Part shown: positions 8,620 through 30,627 of the stretch, in pieces | Layout: the number at the start of each line of letters is the position of its first letter | Position numbering within the stretch: the first letter of the stretch is position 1 | Source of the DNA: Candidatus Altimarinota bacterium | Lineage (GTDB): Bacteria > Patescibacteriota > Gracilibacteria > BD1-5 > UBA2023 | Length of the DNA: 64,000 nucleotides | Direction: 5' to 3' | Assembly: GCA_024709505.1 (NCBI GenBank) | Contig: JANJWP010000003.1 | Location: 4,767 to 68,766 of the forward strand | Made by a program: the position numbers and the translations under genes | The notes under the pieces: model-generated | Databases searched by the model: none | Told to the model about the DNA's origin: nothing | The model's input: only the letters and a program-made list of their open reading frames with translations

Positions 8620-10323
8620 ATGAAACGGATTTGGAACGATATCTCGCTCCGCACGAAATTCATGCTGCTGGCCGGCATGCTCATCGTCATCATCATCGGA
8701 CAGGGGACGGTCGGCGGGTTCGCCGTGAAATCCTACTTCGAAAAAACCGAAGCCGGATACGAACAGGGTACCGTGCCAATCCGCATCATCGGTCAAATAC
8801 TTGAGCGGATGTCCGATAACCGCGCGCAAGTGTTCGGCGCCCTCCAACACAACCCGGCACGGGAAGAATCCCGATTTCATGACCATCCGGTTTCCGAGCA
8901 CGTCAGAAGCATCGAGAAAAACGTCGAGCGGATAAACGAGCTCATCGAAGAATACAAAAAGCATCCGGTTTTCCCGGAAGAAGCGGCGCTCCTGAAAGAG
9001 TTCGAAGAAAAGCGTTCGGCATACGCCATGAAGATTTTGCGCGCAAAATCGAACCTGAACGAAGAGCTCTGGATGGAAACGGCCGCACTGCTTCGCGAAA
9101 TCAACCAAAACTACGAAGCCGCCCGGCAGGCCGGGAACGCTCTCTCCAAATTTTTGGAAGGGCGGGCGGAAAAAAGCGTCATCGCCAACCGCGAAGACTA
9201 CGAATTGCGAGTGCTCATGACGATCGTCGGAGTTCTCGGATCGGCCGTTTTCGGAACGGGCATCAGTCTCATCACGATCGTTTCGTTCCGTTCGCGAATC
9301 GGAAAACTCACCGAGATGGTCGCGAACGTCGAGCGATCCAAAGACCTCACCCTTCCGGTGTCGATCAATGGACGGGACGAAATCGCGGGAATCGCGAAGA
9401 GCTTCGAGAGCCTCGTTGCCGCGGTTCGGGAAAGCGTTGGCGAAATAAAGCGCGAAGCGTCGGAAGTAGCCCAAGGGACCGAAGGAATCCGGTCGGCGAC
9501 GAAGGAAATTCAATCTTCCAACGGCTCGCTCTCCGATTCCGTCGCCCAAAGCGCCGCCACGAGCGAAGAACTCTCGGTCAGTATCGCCGAGGTCGGGGCG
9601 GGCGCCCACGCCGTGAGCGAACTCGTCGGCAACGTCACGAGAAAACTCGTCTCGGAAAGTGCTGCCGAAGTACGAAAAGCCGTCGAGGAACTGGGAAACG
9701 CTTCGCATGCGGTACACCGTTCTGACGCTGAAGTGGAAGAACTGTTCCGTGCTTCCGAAAAAATCGGCCGACTGGCCGATTCGATTGGAAATATCGCGCA
9801 ACAAACCAATCTTCTCGCTCTGAATGCCGCCATCGAAGCGGCGCGGGCGGGCGAGGCCGGGCGGGGATTCTCCGTCGTTGCCGACGAAGTCCGGAAGCTT
9901 TCGGAACACACTTCGCAAGCGACGAAAGAATCCATTGCCGCCATTGCCGACATCCAACACCGGATGGGCGCGCTCCGGGAAGTCATGAAAGAGAGCGTCT
10001 CGCAAATAGAATCGGGCGAGACAATCGGAAAAACGGCGGTAAAAACGCTGGCGGAAGCAGAAAAAAGCAGCGGACAGGCGGCTGAACAAGTCGCCGAGAT
10101 GTCGGCGGCAGTAAACGAGCAGGTTCGGGCCGTCGAAGGACTCTCAAATCAGCTCGAACGCATTGCGGCGGCTTCGGAAGAAGCCAGTTCACAGGCGCGC
10201 CTTTCCTCCGAACTGACCGATCGAGTCCATCATGCCACCGCTTCCTTGCGGAATGCGGTAGACAGATTCAAATCGTGACGGACAAAAGCCGACCTCCGGG
10301 ATTTTCCCGGAGGTTTTTTTTAA
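8620..10323 (+). CDS. Methyl-accepting chemotaxis protein
   Basis: SD AAGGAG 7 nt before the ATG. N-terminal TM, a second TM plus HAMP-like region, and the highly conserved signalling hairpin [36 protein letters not shown]. The standard ORF ends at TGA 10276-10278. Table 25 adds 14 codons to TAA 10321-10323, running through the terminator. Confidence 0.9.
10293..10321. terminator. Intrinsic terminator shared by MCP (+) and proB (-)
   Basis: CCTCCGGG-ATTTTC-CCGGAGG followed by an 8-T run and then an A run. Confidence 0.75.
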
Positions 10324-10335
10324 AAAAAGGGCGGG

Positions 10336-11157
10336 CTATGCCATAATCGAGGTTCCTCCCCTTCGGGACGAAACGTCTTCGACGTGTTCGAGCAAGGTCG
10401 AATCAACCCCGTTGAAAATATGTGCCCGTATTCCGTCATTGGCGGCGTCTCGCGCGACGGTCAATTTCGAAGCCATTCCGCCCGTTCCGGATTTCGATTT
10501 TCCGCTTCCGCACATCCGGGCGATATCCTCATCCGAAAGCCTTGCCGCATGGAGCGTGGAAATACGCGAATCGGGGCGGTCGGCATGCCGGTATACCCCA
10601 TCGGTATTCGTAACGATGGCCAAATGTTCGGCGTTTACCATCCGGGCGATCAGGAGGGCGTTTCGATCGTTATCCGCTCATTTTCCAAGCGCGACGATTT
10701 CTTCGGGAGTGGCGAAGTCATTTTCGTTGAGAATGGGAAGCGCTCCGAAATTCCAAAGCCCCTCCAAGCCCGACATGAGTCCGTTCGAATGCGAAGAATC
10801 GGATTCGATCTGCGCGTGCGTCACGAGTCCTTGCCCTACTAAAACCGGCGGATTGCACGAAGCGAAAAGCGCTTCCCAATTGGACATGAGGCGGTGTTGT
10901 CCTATCGAAGCGAGCGCTCGGCGGTCCTCCAGCGTAAGTTCCCGGTCTTTCGGAAGGTTTTTCGCCTTTCTCCCCTGGGCGACGGCGCCAGAAGAAACGA
11001 GGACGACCCTGCGACGGACGTGCGTAATGAGGTGCGATATTTCAAAGGCCAAACGGGAAAGTTTTTCGCGAGCCCGAGGCGAGTCGAAGTCGGCGGATTC
11101 GGAACCGACTTTCACGACGATGGGAGCGGCGGCGTGTCGGGAGCGTTGGGCGTTCAT
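10336..11157 (-). CDS. proB: Glutamate 5-kinase (short form without PUA domain)
   Basis: Track ORFs 10336..10641 and 10678..11157 are in one frame, joined at TGA 10678. Motifs VVKVGS, VLVSSGAV, NEND, and [UGA=G]ADNDRNALLIA matching the conserved GDND(T)LSA. TAG stop. Confidence 0.88.
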
Positions 11158-11222
11158 GCGGAAGGACTGAGAGGAAAATTGTGTGCGGAGGCGGATTCCG
11201 TTCGGAACGCCGGGAAGATGCC

Positions 11223-12806
11223 TTACTCCTCCTGCGTTTTTGGCCGCATGAGCGGGAAAAGCACGACGTCGCGGAGATTGTTTTGTTCCGTAAGAAGCGC
11301 GATGATCCGATCAACTCCCATGCCCCAGCCGGAAATCGGCGGCATGCCGTATTCCATGGCCCGGACGAATTCAGCATCTCCGGTCATTGCCTCCTCGTCA
11401 CCCTCTGAGAGGGCCTTCTCTCCAGCAGCGAAACGCTCCGCCTGGTCGATGGGATCGACGAGTTCACTGTACGAATTGACGAGTTCCCACCCATTCACGA
11501 CGAGCTGAAAGGCGTCCGCATGGTGGGGACGCTCGTCATTGCGTCGGGCGAACGGCTTGAGTTGAATGGGATAATTGTAGAGGAACGTGGGATTGACGAG
11601 CTTGGGGCGCGACATCTTCTTGTAGAGGTAGTCTATGAGCGTGGTGAGCCCCATCTTGTCGGCACCTTCGATGGCAATGCCCTTCGCCGCGATGTCGGCA
11701 CGGAGTTTCTCCACGTCGTCATACGCTGAAACGTCGATACCGGTATCGCGTTTTACGAGTTCGATATAATCTTCGCGCTTCCACGGAGTGGTAAAATCGA
11801 CGTCAACGAGTTCGTTCTGCTTGTTCCGGATCTTGCGCTTGCGTTCGAGTTTCAGTTCGTCGAAGAGATAATCGAACATCTTTTCGGTAAAGGCCATGTT
11901 ATCGCGAAAGGTCCAATACGAGCAATTGTGTTCGAGGTGGAGGTGCTCGGGAAGGTGCGAAGGATCCTGGCCTTCGTTGCGGAACGCTTTGCCAAGTTCG
12001 AAAATCTTCTCCATGCCCGCGATATTCAGAAGCTTGAGCGGGATTTCGTGCGATATTCGCAAAAACACGTCGATGTCGAGGGCTTCCTGATGGGTGACAT
12101 AGGGTTTCGCGGCAGCTCCGGTGGCCGCGTTCGTAAGAACTTGTCCTTCGATTTCGACAAATCCCTCCTTCCAATAAAATTCGCGGAGCTTGCGGACGAA
12201 ATCGCTTCGGAAACGAAAACGCTTCATGACCGCATCATCGGAAATGAGGTCGAGATAGCGTTGGCGGTATTTGGCTTCCTCGTCGGCAAGGCCGTGGAAT
12301 TTTTCTGGGAGCGGGCGGAACGCCTTGCCAAGGAATTCAACTTCGGTGGCAAAAACGGTTACCTCCCCCTTATGGGTGCGGAACGTCTCCCCGCGAACGC
12401 CGATAAAATCGCCCAAATCCACGAGCTTCTCCACGAATTTGAAAGCCGTGACGACATCTTCGAAAGGGCCGACGGAATCACGGATTTCGCCTCCGACGCG
12501 AATCTTGCAATTATCGCGGGAAAACATGACCTGCACACGACCGGTATCGTCTTGCAAATGGGCGAACGCGATCTTTCCGAAAGAACGGAAAAGCACGACG
12601 CGACCAGCAAGGGAAACGTCGGTTCCGGAAGATGCCATTACTTCTTCCGCAGTGCGGAATTCCTTTCCTTCAGCATCCGCAAGAACGCGTTCGGCCGAAT
12701 GGGTTTTTAAAAACGTTTCCGGATACGCGGGAACGCCAAGGGAACGGATACGGCTTAAACGGGCGAGACGAACGCTAAATTCGTCATTCGCGACAGGAAT
12801 GGTCAT
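11223..12806 (-). CDS. lysS: Lysine--tRNA ligase, class II
   Basis: 527 aa with an OB-fold N-domain and class II motifs (FRNEG..., ELVNSYSELVDP, EYGMPPISGWGMGVDRIIALL). TAA stop. Confidence 0.93.
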   Translation of the reverse strand: MTIPVANDEFSVRLARLSRIRSLGVPAYPETFLKTHSAERVLADAEGKEFRTAEEVMASSGTDVSLAGRVVLFRSFGKIAFAHLQDDTGRVQVMFSRDNCKIRVGGEIRDSVGPFEDVVTAFKFVEKLVDLGDFIGVRGETFRTHKGEVTVFATEVEFLGKAFRPLPEKFHGLADEEAKYRQRYLDLISDDAVMKRFRFRSDFVRKLREFYWKEGFVEIEGQVLTNAATGAAAKPYVTHQEALDIDVFLRISHEIPLKLLNIAGMEKIFELGKAFRNEGQDPSHLPEHLHLEHNCSYWTFRDNMAFTEKMFDYLFDELKLERKRKIRNKQNELVDVDFTTPWKREDYIELVKRDTGIDVSAYDDVEKLRADIAAKGIAIEGADKMGLTTLIDYLYKKMSRPKLVNPTFLYNYPIQLKPFARRNDERPHHADAFQLVVNGWELVNSYSELVDPIDQAERFAAGEKALSEGDEEAMTGDAEFVRAMEYGMPPISGWGMGVDRIIALLTEQNNLRDVVLFPLMRPKTQEE

Positions 12807-12871
12807 TTTGGCTTATTAATGGGACGAATTGGGTTTATGGTAGTAAAAAATCGAGGCTTGTCAAAAAAAGG

Positions 12872-12941: not shown

Positions 12942-13532
12942 ATGACGGACAGGGAAATGCTCGCGAAAGCCCGGGGACTTGCGATTTCGCTCGTCGAAAA
13001 AGTCGATCACTACCAGTACCACAACGTGGGACATACCTTCGACGTTTATTCCCGAACTTCCTACCTGGCGGACATGGAAGGGGTTTCCGAAGAAGAAAAA
13101 ACCGACCTGCTCATTTCGGCGTTGTTCCATGACGTGGGTTTTTCGGTAACGTATCCGCAAAACGAAGGCATCGGCGCCGACATCGCCGAAAGTTTCCTTC
13201 GGGAAAACGGGCATCCTGAGGAGCGCGTCGCCCGGGTTCGCAGAATCATTTTGGCCACCGTCCTTTTTTCAAAAACGGGCGACCTGCTCGAAAAAATTAT
13301 TCAGGACGCCGATCTCGATAATCTGGGAAGAAAAGATTGCCTCCTCCGGACCGACGCCTACCGGAGGGAGCTCCAAACGCATTCCCCCACCCCGTTCGAC
13401 GAAGCGAAATTCCTCGATTTCACGCAGTATTTGCTCGGAGGGGCATTCACGTTCCAAACGGAAACCGGGAGGCGTGAACGGGAGGAAGGGAGACAGAAAA
13501 ATTTGGAGGCCTTCGTCGCAAGGTACCGATAA
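12942..13532 (+). CDS. HD-domain metal-dependent phosphohydrolase
   Basis: 196 aa. H..GH (HNVGHTFDV), HD (ALFHDVGF) and DADLDNLG motifs. TAA stop. Confidence 0.75.
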   Translation: MTDREMLAKARGLAISLVEKVDHYQYHNVGHTFDVYSRTSYLADMEGVSEEEKTDLLISALFHDVGFSVTYPQNEGIGADIAESFLRENGHPEERVARVRRIILATVLFSKTGDLLEKIIQDADLDNLGRKDCLLRTDAYRRELQTHSPTPFDEAKFLDFTQYLLGGAFTFQTETGRREREEGRQKNLEAFVARYR

Positions 13533-13535
13533 TGA

Positions 13536-13626: not shown

Positions 13627-15621
13627 ATGCGAAAACTCTTCCGGTTCCTTCTTTTCACGACGCTCCCCCTCGCGATTCCGGCTTCCGTTCAGGCCGGAGG
13701 TTTCGTCTATCCATTCGACCAGATTTCGGCGACTTCGTGCAAATGGAATCCTTGGTCAAGCCTTAACGACGACTGCAAGATCGATTTGCCTCGAATTTCG
13801 GGGGCGAACTATTCGCAGTACGAAAAAAACCAGCTCTACCGACGGGTATACACCGTGCTTTGGGGGGCGACCTACGACTACGGTTGGGACGTCGGACTCG
13901 GCAGCCATCTGGGAGTGGATATCGCGACCTCCGCGGGAACGCCGGTTCGGTCGATTGGGGACGGAAACGTCGTATATGCGGGATGGTCGAACGGATGGGG
14001 AAACGTCGTGACGATAAAACACGTCCTCTCGGATAAGGCCGTCATCTATTCGAATTACGCGCACCTTTCCAAAATTCTCGCGAAAAACGGGGAAGTCGTG
14101 CTCGCGGGCCAAAACGTCGGGGAAGTTGGAAATACCGGGAATTCCTATGGGAACCACCTCCATTTTCAAATTGACGTGACCAATCAGGCACATCCGTACT
14201 ATTACGTTACTTGCGGAAAGGGTCTTGATCCCCTCTCGGTCGTGAACAAGGGGCTTTGTCAGGACTTCCTCAAACTCAACACCATCGATCCGATCGCGTT
14301 CCTCGAGAGCGGGAAGGTCGCGATTCCGGGCGAGGCGACTAAGGCCGTCATCGAAGCGGTAAAAAACCGTCCGGTTGAAAAAGTGGACCGTTCCAAGATG
14401 AAGACCCGTGCGGAAATCCAACAGGAAGAAATCCAAGAATTTCTCAAATCGAACAACATTTCCATAAATCTTTCCGATAAGGGAACCAATGTCATGGCCG
14501 GAAGCTCGATATGGTCTTCGGTAACGTCCGGGAACGTTCAGGGAAAGGCAACGCGGGGCAATTTTCCGGAAGCTGGACTCGATCTCGTTTATGACGCTTC
14601 GGCGCTTTCGGTATTTCCCGAAAAAATCGTCGCGCTCGAGGGCGGAAAACGCGAATTCCGAGTTACGGCCAAAAAGACCGGGGCTTTTGAAATCGCCTTT
14701 AAGATGGGACAAACGGTCATTGCCAAAAGAACGATCGTCGTCCTTTCCAAAACCGACGCGGAAAAACCCGCGACCGCCGAAATCCGCGCCCCGAACGACA
14801 TCGTTCTTGGAGAATCCAAAAACGTGCTCGTCATCATGAAGAGCAAATACGGGACCCCCCTTCTCGACTCAAAGTTCGAAGGACGCTACGTTCTCCGGGT
14901 ACTCAAGGGCAAAGCCAAATTCTGCAACGCCTCGAAAAACGAAGTGCAAAACTGCCGGACGGAAAAACTCTCCGACGAACTCGAATTCACCTACGAAGAT
15001 ACCTACCGATGAGCCCTCCAAGCACAAATTCGGGCATTCGCTTACGCTCCGATATCGCTTCAACTGGTTCGAATCGATCTTCCGAACCGGCCTTCGGTCA
15101 CGAGATTGAACCGCGACATCAGCGTAACCGCGCCGAAAGGACTCGACAATACCTACGCCTACTATGCCGAAAACGTCGCAGCGCTGCAAAAGGGATGGTT
15201 TCCGACAAAGGACGGGTACCTGCTCCAAAACCGCGAACTCGTCGGAAGCGGAGCAAAAGAACTCATCCGACGCTATCTCGGGTACCGGTGGCTCAAAGCC
15301 GGAAATGACTTCGCCAAAAAGAAATCCGTCGGGGCCGACATCGTGCGGTTCGAACGGGATTTCGGAAAAACCGACGATTTCGCTCGAATCACCCGCGGAC
15401 AATTGGCCGGACTCGTGTTCGAATATAAAAGGGAGCCCATTTCCACGTCAGGCGGAACGCCATTCGTTGACGAGGGAGGCGCTTGGCGCGACGTCATTGC
15501 CACGCTCAGGATTCGTTACAGCTTTCAATGGAAGGACCAGTTCGGCGCGAGATATTTCCAACCGGACAAAACCGTTACGGTAGGAGAAGCGCTCTACTTA
15601 ATGGAAAAAATCGGAGAATAA
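13627..15621 (+). CDS. Secreted M23/LytM-family metallopeptidase with a long C-terminal extension, 664 aa
   Basis: ATG at 13627 gives the signal peptide MRKLFRFLLFTTLPLAIPASVQA. M23 motifs HLGVDIA, GNTGNSYGNHLHFQI. Track ORFs 13474..15012 and 15106..15621 are in frame through TGA 15010. TAA stop. Confidence 0.85.
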
Positions 15622-15650
15622 GCGCGTTTGGGGAGTTCGTGCAAAATAAA

Positions 15651-15678
15651 AAAACGGCTCCCGCTTGGAAGCCGTTTT
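15651..15678. terminator. Intrinsic terminator between the M23 gene (+) and pyrE (-)
   Basis: AAAACGGCTCC-CGCTT-GGAAGCCGTTTT (one bulge) flanked by A and T runs. Confidence 0.75.
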
Positions 15679-15702
15679 AAAACGTCGTCTCGAAAAAGAA
15701 AT

Positions 15703-16491
15703 TCAGGAACCCTTGGAATAATCGGCGCCGTAGAGGCGGCGGTAATCCTTCATCGCCTCGATGATTTCGCCGACCGGATCTTCAAGGGACGGGCCCTCGG
15801 GAACCGATTCGAGCCGCGCGAGCAAATCGTCGAAGGTTGCGATGGCATGGACCGGAATCCCGTATTTGGCGCGAGCCTCCTGAACGGCTGAAAAATCGCC
15901 TTCCTTGCCTTTTTCCATGCGGTCGAAGGCAACCACGACCCCGTGGGGAATCCCTCCGGACGCGCGGATGATTTCGATGGCTTCGCCCACGGCCGTTCCG
16001 GCCGTGATGACGTCGTCAACGATGAGCACCCGCTTTTCCGCAAGCTTCGCCCCAACGATGTTTCCGCCTTCGCCGTGGTCCTTGGCTTCCTTTCGGTTGA
16101 AGGCCCACGGCTTGTCGCGACCGAACTTGCGAAACAGCCCGGCGGCGGCATGGGTCGCCAAGGGAATTCCCTTGTAGGCGGGGCCGAAAATGACGTCGAA
16201 GTCGCCGTGGGTTTCGAAATAGCCGCCGAAGCCGAAAGTCGAGTGCGCGGCGGCGGAACGCTCGTCGGGATAGAGGGAAGCGATTTTTTCGGCGTAGAGC
16301 AATCCAAGCTCCCCGGATTCGGAGCCGGTGCAAAAACTGCCGAAGTTGGCGAAATACGGCGAGACCCTTCCGGATTTCAGCGTGAATTCGCCGAACTTGA
16401 GGACGCCCTTGGCCAACATGAAGTCGAGCAGGCGGACGGCGACGGATTGGGGAAGCTCTTGCGGAAAATCCGCACAAACATCCATGACCAT
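15703..16491 (-). CDS. pyrE: Orotate phosphoribosyltransferase; apparent stop is UGA
   Basis: ATG at 16489-16491 preceded by AGGAAA. PRPP-binding loop VLIVDDVITAGTA. C-terminus ...YRRLYGADYSKGS is typical of the family, followed by TGA 15703-15705. Table 25 would add 34 codons through the terminator to TAA 15598-15600. Confidence 0.9.
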   Translation of the reverse strand: MVMDVCADFPQELPQSVAVRLLDFMLAKGVLKFGEFTLKSGRVSPYFANFGSFCTGSESGELGLLYAEKIASLYPDERSAAAHSTFGFGGYFETHGDFDVIFGPAYKGIPLATHAAAGLFRKFGRDKPWAFNRKEAKDHGEGGNIVGAKLAEKRVLIVDDVITAGTAVGEAIEIIRASGGIPHGVVVAFDRMEKGKEGDFSAVQEARAKYGIPVHAIATFDDLLARLESVPEGPSLEDPVGEIIEAMKDYRRLYGADYSKGS

Positions 16492-16511
16492 GACTGTTTC
16501 CTTTCTCCGCT

Positions 16512-17366
16512 TCAAGCGGAACGGGCGTTGCGATAATTGGAACGGTGGAGATTGATTTCGTCGCGGGTCTTCCCCGCTGCGGCCGCCACGTCCTTGGCGT
16601 AGATGATGCCCCGCGAAGAGTTGATCATCATGCCGAAGCCGTCGGAATCCTGTCCGGCCTTGACGGTCGCTTCGACGTCGCCGCCCTGGGCCCCGATTCC
16701 GGGAACTAAGATCGGCATGTCGCCGACGAGTTCGCGAACGCGGGCAAGCTCCGAAGGACGGGTCGCGCCAACCACGAGGGCCATGCGATTCCCCCCATGA
16801 CGAGCGTTGAGTTCGGCCATCCTGCAAGCGACCTGCTCATAGAGCTTGAGGCCGTTATTCAAGACGAGGTCCTGAAAGTCGCCCCCACCGGGATTGCTCG
16901 TGCGGCAAAGCACGATGACGCCCTTGTCCTCGTATTCGAGGAAAGGTTCGAGCGTATCGAGTCCCATGTAGGGATTGACGGTCACCGCGTCGGCGCCGAA
17001 TCGGACGAAGGCCTCTTCGGCGTATTTCTCGGCGGTATTGCCGATATCGCCGCGTTTGGCGTCGAGAATCACGGGCGTTTTATAGTCGCGCTGGATGCGG
17101 GAGATGAGCATCTGCAGTTCTTCTTCCTTTTCGTAGCGGGAAAAGAAGGCCGCGTTCGGTTTGAAGACCGAAGCGTGCCTGGCCGTAGCCGAAACGGCGT
17201 CGAGGCAAAAGTCGGCAATGACGTCACGAATGGCCGGATTGGCGAATTCGCTGCCGCGAGCCTTGGCAATGGAAGCGTAATCGGGATCGAGTCCGACGCA
17301 GAGAAGCGAATTTTTACGTTCCTGCGAGGCGCGGAGTTTCTCAAAAAATGAACGGGGTTTCGTCAT
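16512..17366 (-). CDS. pyrF: Orotidine 5'-phosphate decarboxylase (type 2); apparent stop is UGA
   Basis: 284 aa with LCVGLDP, ILDAKRGDIGNT and VGATRP motifs. Ends at TGA 16512-16514, 20 nt before the out-of-frame pyrE ATG. Confidence 0.9.
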   Translation of the reverse strand: MTKPRSFFEKLRASQERKNSLLCVGLDPDYASIAKARGSEFANPAIRDVIADFCLDAVSATARHASVFKPNAAFFSRYEKEEELQMLISRIQRDYKTPVILDAKRGDIGNTAEKYAEEAFVRFGADAVTVNPYMGLDTLEPFLEYEDKGVIVLCRTSNPGGGDFQDLVLNNGLKLYEQVACRMAELNARHGGNRMALVVGATRPSELARVRELVGDMPILVPGIGAQGGDVEATVKAGQDSDGFGMMINSSRGIIYAKDVAAAAGKTRDEINLHRSNYRNARSA

Positions 17367-17499
17367 GGTCGGCGTTCCTTTCTTTTTCGGACGATGTGAA
17401 TGAACGTTCGAACGGAACCCGAATTTTTCCGGGTCCGAAACGAATCATTGACGATAGTACGTTTTTTATGGATAAGTCAATCGCAATCGGCTGTTCCAC

Positions 17500-24000: not shown

Positions 24001-25083
24001 TTATTCCCCCTTCCCTGCCGCCTGTTCCAAAAGTTGCGTCTGATCGGCAATCGAAAGCGCTTCGACGATATGGCCAAGTTTCCCCATCATCACGACGGGA
24101 ATGTTCGAAAAATTTTCTCCGATCCGGTGGTCGGTAATGCGGTCCTGCGGAAAATTGTAGGTGCGGATTTTTTCAGCCCGTTCGCCCGTTCCAACCTGCG
24201 AAAGACGATTGGCGCCGAGTTCGTTCGCCCGTTTCTCTTCTTCGATGGCATAGAGGCGGGCCCGAAGGATTTCGAGGGCTTTGGTCTTATTTTGGAGTTG
24301 GGAACGTTCGTCCTGGCATTCCACCGCGAGTCCCGAAGGTTTGTGGAAAACCCGAATGGCCGAAGATGTCTTGTTGACCTTTTGACCTCCGGCTCAGGAA
24401 GCTCGACAGGCCGTGATTTCAATGTCGTCGTCACGGATTTCCACGTCGAGGGCTTCAGCCTCGGGGAGCACGGCCACGGTCACGGTGGAAGTATGGACGC
24501 GCCCCTTCGCCTCGGTTTCGGGAATGCGCTGGACGCGATGGGTTCCGCCTTCGTATTTGAACTTCGAATACGCTCCGGAACCGGAAATTTTCATGATGAT
24601 TTCCTTCAGCCCCCCGACCTCGCTCGCGTTTTCGTCGAGAATTTCGAGGCCAAAACCTTGTTCGCGGGCGAAGTTCATGTAGGCGTTCGCGAGTTCGCGG
24701 GCGAAAAGCGCGGCTTCGTCGCCTCCCGCTCCTGCCCGGACTTCCAAAATGATGTTTTTGTCATCGTTCGGATCCTTGGGAAGGAGTTCGATCTTCAATT
24801 CTTCTTCGAGAACCGGAATCTTTTCTTCGGATTCGGAGAGCTGCTCCTTGGCCATCATGATCATCTCAGGATCTTTTTCGGTTGCGAGAATTTGTTTCGC
24901 CTCCTCTAAGTTGGCCCAAACGGTTCTGTATTGTCCATAGAGTTCAACCGTGCGTTCGAGGGATTTTTTTCGCCGCATGACCTTCTTGAGGCGTCCGGGA
25001 TCGCTAAAAATGGAGGCGTCAGTGGAAAGTTCGTTTTCGATCGAGCGGTACTCGTCAACGATGGCGTCAAGATTGAATTTCAT
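24001..25083 (-). CDS. prfA: Peptide chain release factor 1
   Basis: ATG at 25083. RF1-type tripeptide region [16 protein letters not shown] (PxT, not SPF). GGQ loop RAS[UGA=G][12 protein letters not shown], with the UGA at 24394-24396. TAA stop. Confidence 0.93.
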
Positions 25084-25902: not shown

Positions 25903-28900
25903 ATGACCCCAAAGCGACCCAGCGAAAATGCGGAAGCCCAGCAAATCGGCGAAGGACAATCCTGATTGCTCGACGCCGCGGTCCGCGACTTCGTAGAAAC
26001 CCGATTCAACGATGACGGGCAAAGTTTTTACGAGCGCTTCAACGCGAACATCCCGCTCTTGGGCGATTTCGTCGCTTTTCTCAAAACCAAGCCCGGATAC
26101 AAGCACATCCTCCTTGCCATCGGCGAAATCGGAAAGAAGGGCGGCGACGCGCTGTACCAAGTGCTCAAAACCCCCAAAGGCTCGGGGAATTTAAAGGGGA
26201 ATTTCCTGGTTCTTCGCGAAAGCGTCGAAAAAAACGATAACTCGCTTTTCGCCTCGGAAATCCGCCGGGTCGCTTTCAGTTTGGAAAATCTTCGAAAGGA
26301 AGCTTCGGAACGCTTCGCTTTGGAATACGACTTCTCTTCCTTGCCGAACGCACGGGAAAAATCCGGGGATTTGGAGCGACGGATGGGGCGAATGAGCGTC
26401 CGGGAACTCTCAGAACTCGTGGCCTCTCCCGTGGCACGGTTCGAACTTCTCGAAGGAGTGCTGCGAAAAAATCCGGAATTCTACCGAAAAGATTGGCAAG
26501 CCTACCTCGACGCCCTCCAGTCCGAGACCGGATTGAGCGAAAAAGACCGGGCAAGACTTACGAAACACCTCGAAAACGCCGACTGGATTTCCAACGTCGA
26601 AAACGCGAAAAACGCCTTTAGAACGGGGAACGTGAGCCAAGACGAAATCCGGACGATCATCGGACTCATCGCCTCCCCCAAGGCAAAGCGCGCGCTTTTG
26701 CGAGCGGTCATGCCGAAAATTTCACTCGGCGAGCTCGTGCGGATGAAGATCATCGGAAAGTCCGAAGCCGAAAGCCACGTCGAAAACTTCGTGCGGGATT
26801 CTTGGGAAAAACGAAGCTCCGAGGTATCCGCTTCTTTGATTCGGGATGCCGAAATGCGGGCGGCGGATTCCAAAGAAGAAAACGCCGCGGCCGCGCGCGA
26901 CCGGATATTGAAGGACATCGTCCGATCCCTCGATCCGAACGCCGTGTTCGTCCAAACGGGCGAACTCTCCGACGAAGCGGTGGACGTCGCGCTCAAAAAA
27001 TCGAACGTCGCCGCGCTTTTGGAAGAAAAGGTCGCTGCGGGCATGGAAGAACTAAAAAACGCCCTCGACCCCGAAAAATCGCTTGAAGCCGACCGCAACG
27101 GTTCTTTCGCCGTCGCCTTCGCGAACAAGATCGTTTCGGAATTCTCGGGACACGAAAACGAAACGAAAAACATCGCCGGAGTCGGGATTTTCATGGACAG
27201 CGCGAAAAATCCGTCCGGTGGAGAAGCCATTCTCGAGGGAACTTTGCAAGAAACGCCAGGGAGTCAAGCGGCGAAAATCCGGGTAAAAATCCTCGAATGG
27301 AAAGAACGCTCAAACCCGGGAGAGCGAAAGATGCGCGTAGCGTTTCTCGACGAATACGGAGCCATGGCACGGGAAGACGAGCTCTCCTACGAAGAATTTT
27401 ACCGCTTGGTTCACCGTCTGGAAAACCGGGCGTTCTACGACGGCGAATCGATGGGGCGGAAAATTCGCATCGAAGACGCCGGAACCAAACGGAAGGTCGC
27501 CGAAATGGAAACCGCCGCAAGCGATGAGGAGCGCGAGGAAATCGCGGCCCAAATATCCGCTCCGGAAATCCGAGATTTGAGCGAACTCATCGAAATGTTC
27601 GACGATCTCGACCCGAACGGAACGTCCCATGGATTCAAAGCCGGAATGTCGGTCATTTTTTCCAAACCGGAATCCAAGGAATACAACGTGGTAACCGTCG
27701 AGTCCGTGGACGAAGGAGCGAAAACCCTCACCGTCGTCGATACCCAAAGCGAAAACAACCGACGGTCAACCGTATCGTTTTCGCAATTCTATTCGTTCGC
27801 GAGACTCTTTGGAGCGGCTCGTTCCGCGGGCATCAACTCGGCAAGAAAATTCCTCGATGCCATGAACGCCTCCCTCATGAAGGGGTATTTCGAAGACCTT
27901 TCGGTCGAAGACGGCGAAGGCGGAATGAAAAATTTCGTCCCGAAAAACAAACGCGGGCAAAACGGCTACGAGGGCGTAAGGGTCCTCTATAAGCCGGACG
28001 GAAAAGCCATTCAAATCGGGGCGATGGAAGAAGGGCGCGTCGAAATCCGCATGCTCGAATCGTTCGATCCCGGAAACCAGAAGGAGGGCGTAAAGCCGAA
28101 GGGCGAATTTTCGGGCCCGTTCCAGTGGTACGGATACGAAACCCTCTACATGCTGACAAGGAAACACGGCCTCGGCCCCTACGAAGGCGTCGCCGAAGAA
28201 ATCCAGATCAAAGAGCCCGAATTCGAATCGAAGGGCACGTTGAAGAAATTTCTCAACCGTCCGAGTTTCCACGACTTCCTCCACGGACTTTGAGAGATTC
28301 CGAAATTCATAAAAAAGAAGCTCGAACATTCAAGCCACCACCACGCCGCGCACGTCACCCTCGCGATTGCCGAAAAAATTCCGGGATTCCCTTCGGATTG
28401 GCTCGTAGACCTGCAAATGGAAATCCACAACGAGGACAAGGCGACGCTCGGAAAGGAGGTTGACCGACTCAATTCGTTTTCTTCGCCCAAGCGGCACGAA
28501 CAGGCATTGCGTTACTTGAAAAACGCCGGGTCGCACGACTACGAAATCATCGCCGCCGCGCTTTCGCTTTTGGAAAAACACGGGAACCTCTATCCGGGGG
28601 TTTTGGCGAAATACGAAAAAGATTGGCTCTTTTACGCCCGCATGCCGGGAACGATGGAAGAAAAGAAAAAATTCCTTCAATCCAAACGCTTTGAGCCGGA
28701 CGGAAAGGAACGCGAAGTGAAGGAACCGGAAATCATCATGCTCTGGCTCCAAGAGCTTTCGAAGCGTTCGCACCACCCCATCAGCCCGTACTACTGGCTC
28801 GAAGTGAAGAAGCGCTGGTACGCCGGAGCGACCGGAGAATACGAAATGGGCGGAAAGGAGGCGAAAACTAAGGAGTCCCTCCTCGAGCGGGCCAATTATG

Positions 28901-30627
28901 CGATAGGCAAATTCAAAGGAAAGGAATACGCCCACGGGGTCGGTGCCATGGAAGAAATCTGGAACAAACCCAACGGACTCTGAATGGGCGTCGCGGAGCG
29001 CATGCGGGTTCCGTTCGTTTTGGCGATGAGTAACGTCCGAAAACACCTCCATTCGGATCTCGCGCAGAAATTCACGGAAATGTTCGATGACGGGCATACC
29101 TATCCGCCGCTTTTGTTCATTCAGCAAGCCGATCGGCAAGACATTTTCCGAAAGGTGATCAAACACCTCTCGAATCAGTGAGGAGCCGAAATGTCGGCGG
29201 CTTTCTCGAAAATCGAGAAGCTCATGTTCGAGCCTTCGGTATCGCTCAAAGAAAAATCCAACGACGAGCTCCTCATTCTCGAATTGGACGCGTTTTGGAA
29301 GAAATACGGCGACAAGCTCTCGAAAAAACTTCTCGTTTCGGTCGAGGATCCGCAAATCCTTCTCGAAAAAGAGAATTATCCGGAATTCGCCGAATACCTC
29401 GAAATCGTCGGGGGCGGCTGCGGAAATACGAAGTTCGACGGGACCGAAATCAACTGTGGAACCTACGAAGTCGGTTCGGCCAACTGGTCGCTTGCAGCAC
29501 CGGGAACCTTCGTGAGGCAGTTCAAGGTCCAAGCTGGCCATGGCGCGCTCAATTCCGAATTGGAACAATACCTTTTCGGCACGTTCAAACAGAGTCTCAA
29601 CAAGATTCGCGAAACCAAGTACGACGATGATGCGAACCGTGACCGCGAAATTAAGAAACGGCTTTTTCGCGAGTACCACCTGAACTTCGAACAGTACATC
29701 CATACGCGCCTCGGCTCCGATAAATTGGCCGAAGACCCCAACCGTCGGGGTTCGCCGAAATTCGCGAACGAGCCGTACATGCGCCAACTTACGGACGAAT
29801 TCGGATTTACCGCGAAAATTCCGGACGAAGCGGTGTTCGAAGGAACCAAATACGAAGCTTGGCTCGAATCGGACTTCAACCGTTTCCTATCGATAAAATC
29901 CGCGAAAAAATTCGGGAACGAAGTCGCTACGAACGTTGACGGAATCATCGACCGAAACCTTTTCGACGATGACGACGATGAGGAGGGTGGCGACGGTGAG
30001 GAGGGTGGATGAACCGATAACCGTCCGGAATCCGTTTCCGAACTGGAAGCGGCGGAGACAAACCGCGTGGCGGAAAATCCGGAAGCGCGGGAGACATCAG
30101 GAAGTTCGAACGGAGGCGGAAGTTCGAATCATCTTCCGGAAGAGGAAGAAAGCATTCAAGCCGAAAACGAAGGACCGAGGGAAACCTTTAGAAACCACTA
30201 CTCGCCCATCGTTGACCGAATTGTCGCTCGATTTGGAAAATTGCCCTCCGAGTATGCCAAAGGACGGTCGAAAGACATGAAAAAGGCATTGAAAAAGGCT
30301 GGGGTTTCCATTCCGACCGACATTGCCAACACGGAATGGGCGCTCTCAAAAATCGTCGAGCGGTTCTTGGAGCTCGAGCTTTCGGATTTTTTCGGAGCGG
30401 AAGTCGGAGAAGGATTCGTAGGAAGCGAATATCTCCGCTACGATGACGTCCATGCCAGAATTGGTTCGGAGATTCTTGCGGCGTTTCGCCGCGGGGAAAC
30501 CGTGAATTTCGATCACGTATGAAACGACGCTTCGAGAATCTACCTCCACCTCCTTTTGCGTGACGGAATGACCTGGAAACCCGAAGATCTTCGAAACATA
30601 GGAAAGATTTTCTTGGATGCCGCCTAG
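25903..30627 (+). CDS. Giant hypothetical protein, 1574 aa, 6 sense UGA
   Basis: Track ORFs 25966..28293, 28417..28983, 28984..29181, 29191..30012 and 30067..30522 all share one frame, with no TAA/TAG between them. TGA at 25963, 28291, 28981, 29179, 30010 and 30520. First true stop is TAG 30625-30627. Start ATG 25903 was chosen because earlier ATGs lie inside the promoter. No family recognised; there is an acidic DDDDDEEGGDGEEGG tract. Confidence 0.7.

What the first reader, a model, noticed from the sequence alone, without database searches (positions are those of the whole stretch)
16489..16514. pyrF stops at UGA 20 nt before an out-of-frame pyrE start; strict read-through would overprint all of pyrE
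pyrF ends ...SNYRNARSA-TGA (16512-16514). The next bases are AGCGGAGAAAGGAAACAGTC-ATG, where AGGAAA is an SD-like element and ATG 16489-16491 starts pyrE. The pyrE ATG is not in the pyrF frame (offset 23 nt). The pyrF frame contains no TAA/TAG across the whole of pyrE; the next one is a TAG near 15595. Table 25 therefore predicts a tail of about 305 aa translated out of frame over pyrE. This is the clearest case where UGA behaves like a stop.
Basis: seen in the sequence. Interest (0 to 1): 0.8.

Follow-up and report, generated by a model that had tools for sequence, protein, structure and literature searches.

The report
UGA ends pyrF in UGA-glycine bacterium
In a bacterium that reads UGA as glycine inside genes, the pyrF gene and several others still end at a conserved UGA, which suggests that this lineage uses one codon both as an amino acid and as a stop.

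Summary
pyrF (17366..16512, minus strand) ends at TGA. Twenty nt later pyrE starts out of frame. The pyrF frame stays open to TAG 15596-15594, 305 codons beyond the TGA. Three independent assemblies give the same 20-nt spacer, so it is not an indel artefact.

The genome does read UGA as Gly. In-frame TGA sits at conserved Gly in UvrB, RecA, MurI, a glycosyltransferase and RF1.

Eleven related lineages of the same UGA=Gly clade share the synteny uvrB-pyrF-pyrE.
- The pyrF end is TGA in 9 and TAA in 2, one of them at the same codon.
- The spacer is 20, 21, 22, 36 or 72 nt, so a PyrF-PyrE fusion is not conserved.
- The stop lies in the loop of a conserved 7-bp hairpin whose 3' arm holds the pyrE Shine-Dalgarno sequence.

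pyrE and a chemoreceptor gene also end at TGA, each followed directly by a terminator. In relatives, 17 of 39 terminal-looking TGAs have a terminator within 38 nt, against 1 of 22 internal TGAs.

Most likely UGA still acts as a stop at a subset of gene ends in this clade. The mechanism is unproven because RF2 and tRNA-Gly(UCA) could not be checked.

The parts
17451..17480 (-). Promoter-like site (TTGACT-18-TATCGT) upstream of pyrF
   Evidence: Consensus scan only. It lies between the uvrB stop (TAG 17502-17500) and the pyrF ATG. Function is not tested.
16512..17366 (-). pyrF, type-2 orotidine-5'-phosphate decarboxylase, 284 aa, with terminal codon TGA at 16514-16512
   Evidence: NCBIfam TIGR02127 scores 247.8 bits (cutoff 110.6) and covers profile positions 1-257 of 261. 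There is no internal TGA. The C-terminal ...SA is shared by clade relatives.
16505..16521 (-). 7-bp hairpin UUCCGCU-UGA-AGCGGAG. The pyrF stop codon is the triloop and the 3' arm contains the GGAG of the pyrE Shine-Dalgarno sequence.
   Evidence: It is part of the minimum-free-energy fold in all 8 junctions folded. On alignment A4, 96.8% of cells are paired, against 48-70% for slid controls, with one compensatory pair C:G<->U:A. It is retained in L052, where the stop has moved upstream. No Rfam family matches.
16499..16508 (-). Shine-Dalgarno-like GGAGAAAGGA, 7 nt before the pyrE ATG
   Evidence: GGRGAAAGG is present in all nine aligned junctions. AAAGGAA also precedes the pyrF ATG.
15703..16491 (-). 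pyrE, orotate phosphoribosyltransferase, 262 aa, also ending in TGA (15705-15703)
   Evidence: NCBIfam TIGR00336 scores 164.3 bits (cutoff 106.8). The stop is TGA in 9 of 11 lineages and TAG in 2. Its position shifts by 0 to +5 codons after GADYS.
15641..15678 (-). Intrinsic terminator (12-bp stem, 4-nt loop, T-run) beginning 24 nt after the pyrE TGA. It lies between that TGA and the next TAA, and its hairpin is shared with the convergent M23 peptidase gene.
   Evidence: An equivalent hairpin plus T-run follows pyrE in every relative.
15594..16511 (-). Off-frame stretch (305 codons plus TAG) that strict UGA=Gly reading of pyrF would translate across pyrE
   Evidence: The 305-aa product matches no NCBIfam family. 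The open frame follows from the rarity of off-frame TAA/TAG.
10276..10323 (+). Second example in the window. The chemoreceptor (MCP) gene ends ...RFKS-TGA (10276-10278), followed by a terminator hairpin from 10291. The TAA 10321-10323 falls only at the end of the T-run.
   Evidence: Orthologues in L328 and L329 also end at TGA plus a terminator. Their post-TGA tails are not conserved, and the next TAA/TAG is more than 120 codons away.

Best explanation
pyrF and pyrE are two separate, translationally coupled cistrons of one small operon: promoter-like site, pyrF, pyrE, terminator. The UGA at 16514-16512 is the functional end of pyrF.

The UGA sits in the triloop of a conserved 7-bp hairpin whose 3' arm base-pairs with the GGAG of the pyrE Shine-Dalgarno sequence. 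A ribosome that reaches the end of pyrF melts the stem and frees the SD. This allows initiation at the AUG 20 nt downstream.

The organism belongs to a ~55% G+C Patescibacteria clade that reads internal UGA as glycine. The same clade keeps UGA as the terminal codon of a subset of genes: pyrF, pyrE and the chemoreceptor gene in this window, and more genes in relatives. UGA is therefore most likely dual-use in this clade, Gly inside genes and stop at some gene ends.

Shown: the anatomy, its conservation, UGA=Gly at internal sites, and the association of terminal UGAs with terminators.

Inferred: that ribosomes actually terminate at these UGAs, that the hairpin couples translation, and what the release mechanism is. 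A retained RF2 competing with tRNA-Gly(UCA) is the simplest candidate.
For: - UGA=Gly in the window. In-frame TGA aligns with conserved Gly in UvrB GRGPGE, RecA EKQFGKGS, glycosyltransferase YEGFGLP, MurI and an FNR-like protein, and RF1 SGAGGQ.
- UGA=Gly in relatives. 29 of 36 internal TGAs align with Gly of the window orthologue. In L055 the TGA falls in sigma-70 NRGLxF.
- Vertical inheritance. The synteny ksgA-uvrB-pyrF-pyrE-M23 peptidase-HD is shared by relatives with 62-89% PyrF identity.
- Stop position conserved with TGA<->TAA exchange. The spacer is 20 (window, L376, L327), 21 (L051, L326, L054, L329), 22 (L328), 36 (L052) or 72 nt (L055).
- Changes at terminal TGAs. Every replacement seen is to TAA or TAG and none is to a sense codon, although 8 of the 9 single-base changes of TGA give sense codons.
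- pyrE stop. It moves between 0 and +5 codons after GADYS yet is TGA in 9 of 11 lineages. L054 has tandem TGA TGA.
- Other genes. uvrB, ksgA, M23, HD and the amino-acid kinase always end in TAA or TAG.
- Terminators in the window. Of 13 gene-end terminators, 11 follow TAA/TAG and 2 follow TGA.
- Terminators in relatives. 17 of 39 non-split TGA ends have a hairpin plus T-run within 8-38 nt, against 1 of 22 internal TGAs (Fisher P=0.001) and 13 of 44 TAA/TAG ends. The next TAA/TAG lies up to 398 codons beyond those terminators.
- Hairpin.
- Assembly. Independent assemblies agree.
Against: - No release factor for UGA was found. The window encodes only RF1, and published BD1-5/SR1 genomes lack prfB (PMC6851277, PMC8629427).
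- tRNA-Gly(UCA) and prfB could not be searched in the rest of this genome.
- In five relatives pyrE is in frame with pyrF, which is compatible with read-through fusions.
- Hairpin covariation rests on one compensatory pair, probably a single event. The 5' arm is also coding and the 3' arm is also the SD, so conservation alone is weak evidence for structure.
- Folding z-scores of the 67-83-nt junction segments are not significant.
- The terminator counts use my own simple detector and code-11 gene calls. pyrE orthologues contribute 8 of the 17 cases, so there are about 8 independent gene families.
- Only about 3 of about 50 genes in this window end in TGA.
Confidence: 0.55

Rival explanations
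1. Strict code 25. UGA is always glycine and there is no UGA-directed release. PyrF in this organism carries a 305-aa out-of-frame tail, and in the 21-nt relatives it forms a PyrF-Gly-linker-PyrE fusion. The terminal-looking TGAs are relics of the pre-reassignment code that are tolerated, degraded or rescued. pyrE is made independently from its own SD and AUG.
For: UGA=Gly is well supported at many internal sites. Only RF1 is present in the window, and the literature reports loss of prfB in known code-25 lineages (PMC6851277). Five of nine TGA junctions are in frame with no TAA/TAG in between. Natural PyrF/PyrE fusions exist elsewhere (NCBIfam NF004034). In L327 an out-of-frame junction has a TAG only 9 codons downstream, as expected if read-through is selected against.
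Against: - An unconstrained sense codon should not stay TGA, or be replaced only by TAA/TAG, over 55-89% protein identity, nor reappear as TGA when the stop position shifts.
- Spacer lengths of 20, 21 and 22 nt alternate within both subclades.
- The out-of-frame arrangement persists in two lineages about 11% diverged at the nucleotide level, with 305 and 192 open off-frame codons.
- Terminators sit directly after the TGAs and the next TAA/TAG is up to 398 codons away, so the transcripts would be non-stop.
- Post-TGA tails are not conserved.
Confidence: 0.22
2. Termination-like release without a UGA-specific factor. Decoding of UGA by a scarce tRNA-Gly(UCA) is slow or context-dependent, for example poor when the next base is not G. 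Ribosomes stalled at terminal UGAs, or at the nearby transcript 3' end, are then released by a codon-independent rescue factor (ArfB-type) or by weak RF1 activity.
For: Terminal TGAs other than pyrF are followed by G in 1 of 20 cases. The figure is 27 of 59 for internal TGAs (P=0.0008) and 24 of 85 for TAA/TAG stops (P=0.04). Terminators lie 8-38 nt after terminal TGAs.
Against: The +4 difference is confounded by coding versus non-coding composition and by orthologous, non-independent sites. The pyrF UGA itself is followed by G in four lineages, by A in four (including the window) and by C in L376. No rescue factor was examined. tmRNA rescue would tag the proteins for degradation.
Confidence: 0.13
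3. Sequencing or assembly indel. The true spacer is 21 nt and pyrF-pyrE is an in-frame fusion read through Gly, as in L051 and L326.
For: The two closest 21-nt relatives differ from the window by a single base in spacer length.
Against: Two independent Logan assemblies from different runs give the identical 20-nt spacer, and there is no homopolymer longer than 3 at the site. L376, from another sample and 89% identical at the nucleotide level, also has 20 nt.
Confidence: 0.02

Closest known systems
Genetic code 25 (UGA = Gly) of Absconditabacteria/SR1 and Gracilibacteria/BD1-5 (Campbell 2013; Rinke 2013; Hanke 2014, as cited in PMC6851277 and PMC8629427)
   Same: In-frame UGA at universally conserved Gly positions in many housekeeping genes, a Patescibacteria background, and RF1 present.
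   Different: UGA is also the conserved terminal codon of a subset of genes, directly followed by terminators or by the next gene's SD and AUG. G+C is 54%, just above the top of the reported range (0.21-0.53). RF2 loss and tRNA-Gly(UCA), which are hallmarks of code 25, could not be verified.
Context-dependent dual-meaning stop codons in eukaryotes (Condylostoma, Parduczia, Blastocrithidia); from my own knowledge, not read here
   Same: The same codon is sense inside genes and a stop at gene ends, with position near the transcript 3' end as a plausible discriminator.
   Different: Those are eukaryotes with poly(A)/PABP-eRF1-based discrimination. No bacterial equivalent is described, and none was shown here.
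Translational coupling through an SD-sequestering hairpin at a cistron junction; also the E. coli rph-pyrE arrangement, where ribosomes reaching the end of the upstream ORF control pyrE expression (own knowledge)
   Same: The stop of the upstream cistron lies within about 20 nt of the downstream start, the SD is paired in a stem that a terminating ribosome would open, and the downstream gene is pyrE.
   Different: In E. coli the element is a UTP-sensitive transcription attenuator. Here no T-run follows the hairpin, so the predicted effect is on initiation only. Coupling is not tested.
Bifunctional OMP decarboxylase/OPRTase (NCBIfam NF004034 / PRK05500) and eukaryotic UMP synthase
   Same: The order PyrF then PyrE matches. 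In five relatives the two ORFs are in frame and separated only by UGA plus 7-24 codons.
   Different: The window's ORFs are out of frame. Scores of 132.6 and 39.2 bits are far below the 656-bit cutoff. Frame is not conserved, and the SD and AUG are conserved.
Bacterial selenocysteine recoding (UGA plus a SECIS hairpin)
   Same: A UGA is closely associated with a conserved hairpin.
   Different: A SECIS lies 3' of the UGA within a continuing ORF. Here the UGA is the loop, the ORF's homology ends there, and TAA substitutes for it in L328.

Membership tests
Genetic code 25 (UGA=Gly) | In-frame UGA at conserved glycine positions of conserved proteins | tested here: met
   UvrB, RecA, MurI, glycosyltransferase, FNR-like protein and RF1 in the window. 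In relatives, 29 of 36 internal TGAs align with Gly. Sigma-70 in L055.
Genetic code 25 (UGA=Gly) | UGA is not used to end genes | tested here: not met
   pyrF, pyrE and the chemoreceptor gene in the window, and about 8 gene families in relatives, end at a conserved TGA followed by a terminator or the next start.
Genetic code 25 (UGA=Gly) | tRNA-Gly with anticodon UCA | not testable with these tools
   The window holds only tRNA-Leu(CAA) and tRNA-Ser(CGA), and there are no tRNAs in the relatives' loci. The rest of the genome is not available.
Genetic code 25 (UGA=Gly) | Loss of release factor 2 (prfB) | not testable with these tools
   The window has prfA only (465 bits against a 400-bit cutoff; the prfB model scores 264.5 against 370). 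Absence from 64 kb says nothing about the genome.
Bifunctional PyrF/PyrE fusion (NF004034) | One continuous reading frame through both domains | tested here: not met
   pyrE is in the +2 frame relative to pyrF, with a 20-nt spacer. This is confirmed by L001, L002 and L376.
Bifunctional PyrF/PyrE fusion (NF004034) | Score at or above the family's curated cutoff | tested here: not met
   132.6 bits (PyrF) and 39.2 bits (PyrE) against a cutoff of 656.
Translationally coupled cistron pair with SD-occluding hairpin | The upstream stop lies within a few tens of nt of the downstream SD and AUG, and the SD is paired in a local stem | tested here: met
   The stop is in the triloop, GGAG is in the 3' arm, and the AUG is 20 nt downstream. 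The stem is in the MFE structure of all 8 junctions folded.
Translationally coupled cistron pair with SD-occluding hairpin | The stem is maintained by compensatory change | tested here: inconclusive
   One pair shows C:G<->U:A in 3 of 9 sequences, probably one event. Five pairs are invariant. 96.8% of cells are paired, against 48-70% for slid controls.
Translationally coupled cistron pair with SD-occluding hairpin | pyrE expression depends on translation of the pyrF 3' end | not testable with these tools
   This needs a reporter or ribosome-profiling experiment.
Rho-independent terminator (after pyrE) | G+C-rich hairpin followed by a T-run, conserved in position | tested here: met
   Hairpin at 15678-15651 plus TTTATTTT. 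An equivalent structure is present in all ten junctions tabulated, although the sequences differ.

The most novel reading that the evidence does not exclude
A clade of ~55% G+C Patescibacteria uses UGA genome-wide with two meanings. It is glycine at internal positions, including the GGQ-motif region of its own RF1, and a genuine stop at a substantial fraction of gene ends. This would be either a stable 'ambiguous intermediate' with both tRNA-Gly(UCA) and RF2, or a still unknown context-dependent termination mechanism in bacteria. The pyrF-UGA-pyrE junction would be its clearest operon-internal example. In relatives with a 21-nt spacer it could also yield some PyrF-PyrE fusion by partial read-through.
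Probability: 0.45. Interest if true: 0.85.

Novelty: new variant of a known kind. Interest (0 to 1): 0.68.

Why it matters
Stop-codon reassignment in bacteria is usually described as all-or-none: RF2 is lost and UGA becomes a sense codon. If one bacterial clade keeps UGA as a working stop at some gene ends while reading it as glycine elsewhere, it would be a natural example of the ambiguous-intermediate route of code change. That long-standing question would then become directly testable.

There are practical consequences too.
- Neither table 11 nor table 25 annotates these genomes correctly. Table 11 splits uvrB, recA and rpoD. Table 25 fuses or extends pyrF, pyrE and the chemoreceptor gene.
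- Code-prediction tools and MAG annotation for Patescibacteria would need a mixed model.

Tried and rejected
- **Codon model.** My first self-trained codon model used out-of-frame seeds and drifted to a shifted frame. Those results were discarded and redone.
- **Exact look-ups.** The exact look-up of the 284-aa PyrF found nothing.
- **The search for related loci, single PyrF.** This returned only Burkholderiales-like and other distant genes at 57% identity or less. That briefly suggested horizontal transfer. I rejected it once syntenic Patescibacteria relatives were found.
- **DNA pattern scans.** The metagenome-contig scan found no clade member. The hairpin-pattern scan found only the already known L054 contig plus 44 unrelated chance or SD-hairpin matches.
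- **Pfam with window references.** The tool rejected translations that contain TGA.
- **Programmed -1 frameshift.** This could in principle restore a fusion, but the spacer has no X XXY YYZ slippery site (read directly).
- **Recent horizontal transfer of pyrFE.** This would explain leftover TGA stops, but conserved synteny and graded identity argue against it.
- **Rfam.** No family matches the junction.
- **Sequence context around UGA.** I found only weak, confounded signals: T before internal TGAs, and few G after terminal TGAs.
Full report
**1. The observation**

- pyrF is 17366..16512 (284 aa) and ends ...SNYRNARSA-TGA at 16514-16512.
- The next 20 nt are AGCGGAGAAAGGAAACAGTC, and pyrE starts at ATG 16491-16489, in the +2 frame.
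- With only TAA/TAG as stops, the pyrF frame continues to TAG 15596-15594. That gives 590 aa in total: the UGA read as Gly plus a 305-aa tail.
Under table 25 it would run 34 more codons, to TAA 15600-15598, straight through a 12-bp hairpin plus T-run at 15678-15641.

NCBIfam identifies both proteins as complete. pyrF is TIGR02127 (247.8 bits, cutoff 110.6). pyrE is TIGR00336 (164.3 bits, cutoff 106.8). The hypothetical 305-aa tail matches nothing.

The junction is not an assembly artefact. Two Logan contigs from different runs carry the same TGA and the same 20-nt spacer: L001 (SRR19748874, 100% identical) and L002 (SRR19748877, two SNPs).

The length of the open off-frame is not surprising in itself. 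Off-frame TAA/TAG occur only 0-2 times per pyrE frame, and 0-3 per pyrF frame, in the whole clade. With TAA/TAG as the only stops, the 54.4% G+C window contains 280 ORFs of at least 150 aa.

**2. The genome does read UGA as glycine**

In-frame TGA falls on conserved Gly in several proteins.
- UvrB...SRRGF*ETPS, matching E. coli GRGPGEPP (recalled from my own knowledge, not retrieved here).
- RecA EKQF*AGSIM, a GT4 glycosyltransferase YEGF*LPVLEA, MurI LATE*TV, an FNR-like protein and KsgA.
- The organism's own RF1, in RAS*AGGQ.

A self-trained codon model gives about 2.4 TGA per 1000 codons in coding frames. Coding potential of most genes runs up to a TAA or TAG.

**3. Relatives**

A protein search found a graded series of PyrF relatives at 99% down to 55% identity. 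Those that carry a name are labelled Patescibacteria MAGs. Ten contigs were retrieved.
- Most of these contigs, down to 64% PyrF identity, share part or all of the synteny ksgA-uvrB-pyrF-pyrE-M23 peptidase-HD-lysS. L055 (62%) and L330 (55%) keep only the pyrF-pyrE pair. So pyrFE is native, not a recent import.
- They also read UGA as Gly. Of 36 internal TGAs in conserved alignment blocks, 29 align with Gly of the window orthologue.
- In L055 a TGA replaces the invariant Gly of sigma-70 region 2 (NRGLxF). L376 shares the window's UvrB TGA.
- L330, the most distant, shows no split genes and may use the standard code.

**4. The junction across 11 lineages**

| Lineage | PyrF identity | pyrF stop | Spacer to pyrE ATG | pyrE frame |
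|---|---|---|---|---|
| Window | 100% | TGA | 20 nt | out |
| L376 | 89% | TGA | 20 nt | out |
| L051 | 89% | TGA | 21 nt | in |
| L326 | 88% | TGA | 21 nt | in |
| L052 | 77% | TAA, eight codons earlier | 36 nt | not applicable (TAA stop) |
| L327 | 67% | TGA | 20 nt | out (a TAG follows after 9 codons) |
| L328 | 66% | TAA at exactly the codon where the others have TGA | 22 nt | not applicable (TAA stop) |
| L054 | 64% | TGA | 21 nt | in |
| L329 | 64% | TGA | 21 nt | in |
| L055 | 62% | TGA | 72 nt | in |
| L330 | 55% | TGA in an ATGA overlap | overlap | out |

Three points follow.
- The end of pyrF is always a stop-like codon at the natural C-terminus, and TGA exchanges with TAA.
- Spacer length drifts among 20, 21 and 22 nt within both subclades. 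This is the behaviour of an SD-to-AUG spacer, not of a translated linker, so a PyrF-PyrE fusion is not under selection. Strict table-25 reading would nevertheless produce one in five lineages.
- The out-of-frame state is stable. The window and L376 are about 11% diverged in nucleotide sequence and both have it, with 305 and 192 open off-frame codons.

**5. The hairpin**

The last two pyrF codons, the stop, and the first seven spacer bases form UUCCGCY-UGA-RGCGGAG. This is a 7-bp stem with the stop codon as the triloop (16521-16505).
- Its 3' arm contains the GGAG of the conserved GGAGAAAGG Shine-Dalgarno sequence.
- The stem is part of the minimum-free-energy structure in all eight junctions folded.
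- On alignment A4, 96.8% of cells are paired, against 48-70% in slid controls. The loop-closing pair changes C:G<->U:A through a synonymous GCC->GCT together with G->A after the stop.
- L052 keeps the stem even though its stop has moved upstream.
- The otherwise variable PyrF C-terminal tail always ends in -SA (TCC GCY), which fits an RNA-level constraint.
- No Rfam family matches.

Whole-segment folding z-scores are not significant and covariation is thin, so the coupling role of the hairpin is an inference.

**6. The same thing happens at other gene ends**

pyrE:
- It ends in TGA in 9 of 11 lineages and in TAG in L326 and L376.
- The stop position moves between 0 and +5 codons after the conserved GADYS, yet it remains TGA. 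L054 has tandem TGA TGA.
- In every case a terminator follows within about 15-30 nt, and the next TAA/TAG lies 8-232 codons away.

The chemoreceptor (MCP) gene:
- It ends ...RFKS-TGA (10276), with a terminator hairpin from 10291.
- Its orthologues in L328 and L329 do the same, with unrelated post-TGA sequences and no TAA/TAG for more than 120 codons.

Other cases:
- A membrane-protein pair (L328 8037-8444 and L329 17421-17840) loses similarity after ...KYP. Each member ends at a TGA at a different position, and each is followed by a terminator.
- By contrast, uvrB (TAG, 7 of 7), ksgA (TAA, 5 of 5), M23, HD and the amino-acid kinase always end in TAA or TAG.

Terminator counts:
- In the window, 11 of 13 gene-end terminators follow TAA/TAG and 2 follow TGA.
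- In the relatives' code-11 gene calls, 17 of 39 TGA ends that do not continue into an in-frame gene have a hairpin plus T-run within 8-38 nt.
- The comparison figures are 13 of 44 for TAA/TAG ends and 1 of 22 for TGAs that split a gene (Fisher P=0.001 against split TGAs).

Every change seen at terminal TGAs is to TAA or TAG and none is to a sense codon, although 8 of the 9 single-base changes of TGA give sense codons.

**7. Interpretation**

These patterns are what selection for termination produces. They are hard to reconcile with UGA being only a glycine codon.
- An unconstrained sense codon would not be kept or re-created at gene ends.
- Transcripts ending at the conserved terminators would lack any stop codon.

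I therefore favour the view (confidence about 0.55) that UGA still functions as a stop at a subset of gene ends in this clade, while being read as Gly internally. On this view the pyrF UGA is such a stop, placed in a coupling hairpin that hands ribosomes or SD access to pyrE.

How release is achieved is unknown.
- The window encodes RF1 only: prfA scores 465 bits, and the prfB model falls below its cutoff.
- It holds just two unrelated tRNAs.
- The literature states that known BD1-5/SR1 genomes lack prfB (PMC6851277; PMC8629427; bioRxiv 10.64898/2026.05.24.727570).
- A retained RF2 competing with tRNA-Gly(UCA) is the simplest mechanism.
- A weak hint of context dependence exists. Terminal TGAs other than pyrF are followed by G in 1 of 20 cases, against 27 of 59 for internal TGAs. 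This is confounded by coding composition and by orthology.

Rivals:
- Strict code 25, with tolerated tails or fusions and relic TGAs: 0.22.
- Factor-independent or rescue-type release: 0.13.
- An assembly indel: 0.02.

**8. Comparison with what is known and novelty**

The internal-UGA criterion for code 25 is met, but the criterion that no gene ends in UGA is not. The tRNA and RF2 criteria could not be tested.

This is not a member of the bifunctional PyrF/PyrE family. The ORFs are out of frame and the scores are 132.6 and 39.2 bits against a 656-bit cutoff.

In behaviour it resembles the dual-meaning stop codons of some ciliates and trypanosomatids. I found no bacterial description of that in two literature searches.

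I rate it a new variant of a known kind. The specific junction is modest on its own. It points, however, to a clade-wide dual use of UGA that would interest specialists and is readily testable in existing MAGs and metaproteomes. Interest is 0.68.

Noticed in passing
window 24001-25074 (-), TGA at 24396-24394: The only release factor gene in the window is prfA (RF1; PxT motif reads PET). Its own conserved Gly in the S-G-A-GGQ region is encoded by TGA, so making the factor that ends translation requires reading UGA as glycine.
   Followed up: partly
window 10276-10323 (+): The chemoreceptor (MCP) gene ends ...RFKS-TGA, followed at once by a terminator hairpin (10291 onward). The first TAA falls only at the end of the T-run. 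The L328 and L329 orthologues do the same, and their tails are not conserved.
   Followed up: yes
window 15641-15705 (-) and 15619-15682 (+): pyrE also ends in TGA. Its terminator hairpin is shared, as a bidirectional terminator, with the convergent M23 peptidase gene, which ends in TAA 15619-15621.
   Followed up: yes
window 13530-13535 (+): The HD-domain gene ends with tandem TAA TGA directly before a terminator (13536).
   Followed up: no
window-wide internal TGAs; relatives L051-L329: Glycine-coding TGAs are preceded by T much more often than GGN codons are (17 of 59 against 9.5%, P=2e-5), often as TTT/TTC-TGA. They are followed by G in 46% of cases, whereas terminal TGAs other than pyrF are followed by G in 1 of 20.
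   Followed up: partly
L051 6990-7085, compared with window 11080-11300 (-): In this relative a deletion removed the lysS-like synthetase stop and the intergenic region. The gene now ends at the TGA of an ATGA overlap with the amino-acid-kinase start. This is a newly created terminal TGA, with a TAA 13 codons further on.
   Followed up: partly
window 11223-12812 (-): The class II aminoacyl-tRNA synthetase looks like LysRS (FRNEG...). In many bacteria prfB sits upstream of lysS, but here the upstream neighbour is a divergent HD-domain gene, so prfB is not in that position.
   Followed up: no
L330 (Logan SRR22387871), whole locus: The most distant relative (PyrF 55%) shows no TGA-split genes, and 6 of 10 calls end in TGA. 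It may be a standard-code outgroup, which would help date the reassignment.
   Followed up: no
L052/L247 (GCA_030836665.1) and L054 (GCA_041891375.1): In the table of called genes returned for the NCBI MAG contig L052, uvrB is split in two at an in-frame TGA. The NCBI-listed PyrF of L054 (276 aa) ends at the TGA. These calls behave as if made with the standard code, so the public annotation may be fragmented.
   Followed up: partly
window 25927-30627 (+): A very long ORF (about 1,590 aa, with several internal TGAs) has strong coding potential. I did not run any family or homology search on it, so its identity is unknown.
   Followed up: no
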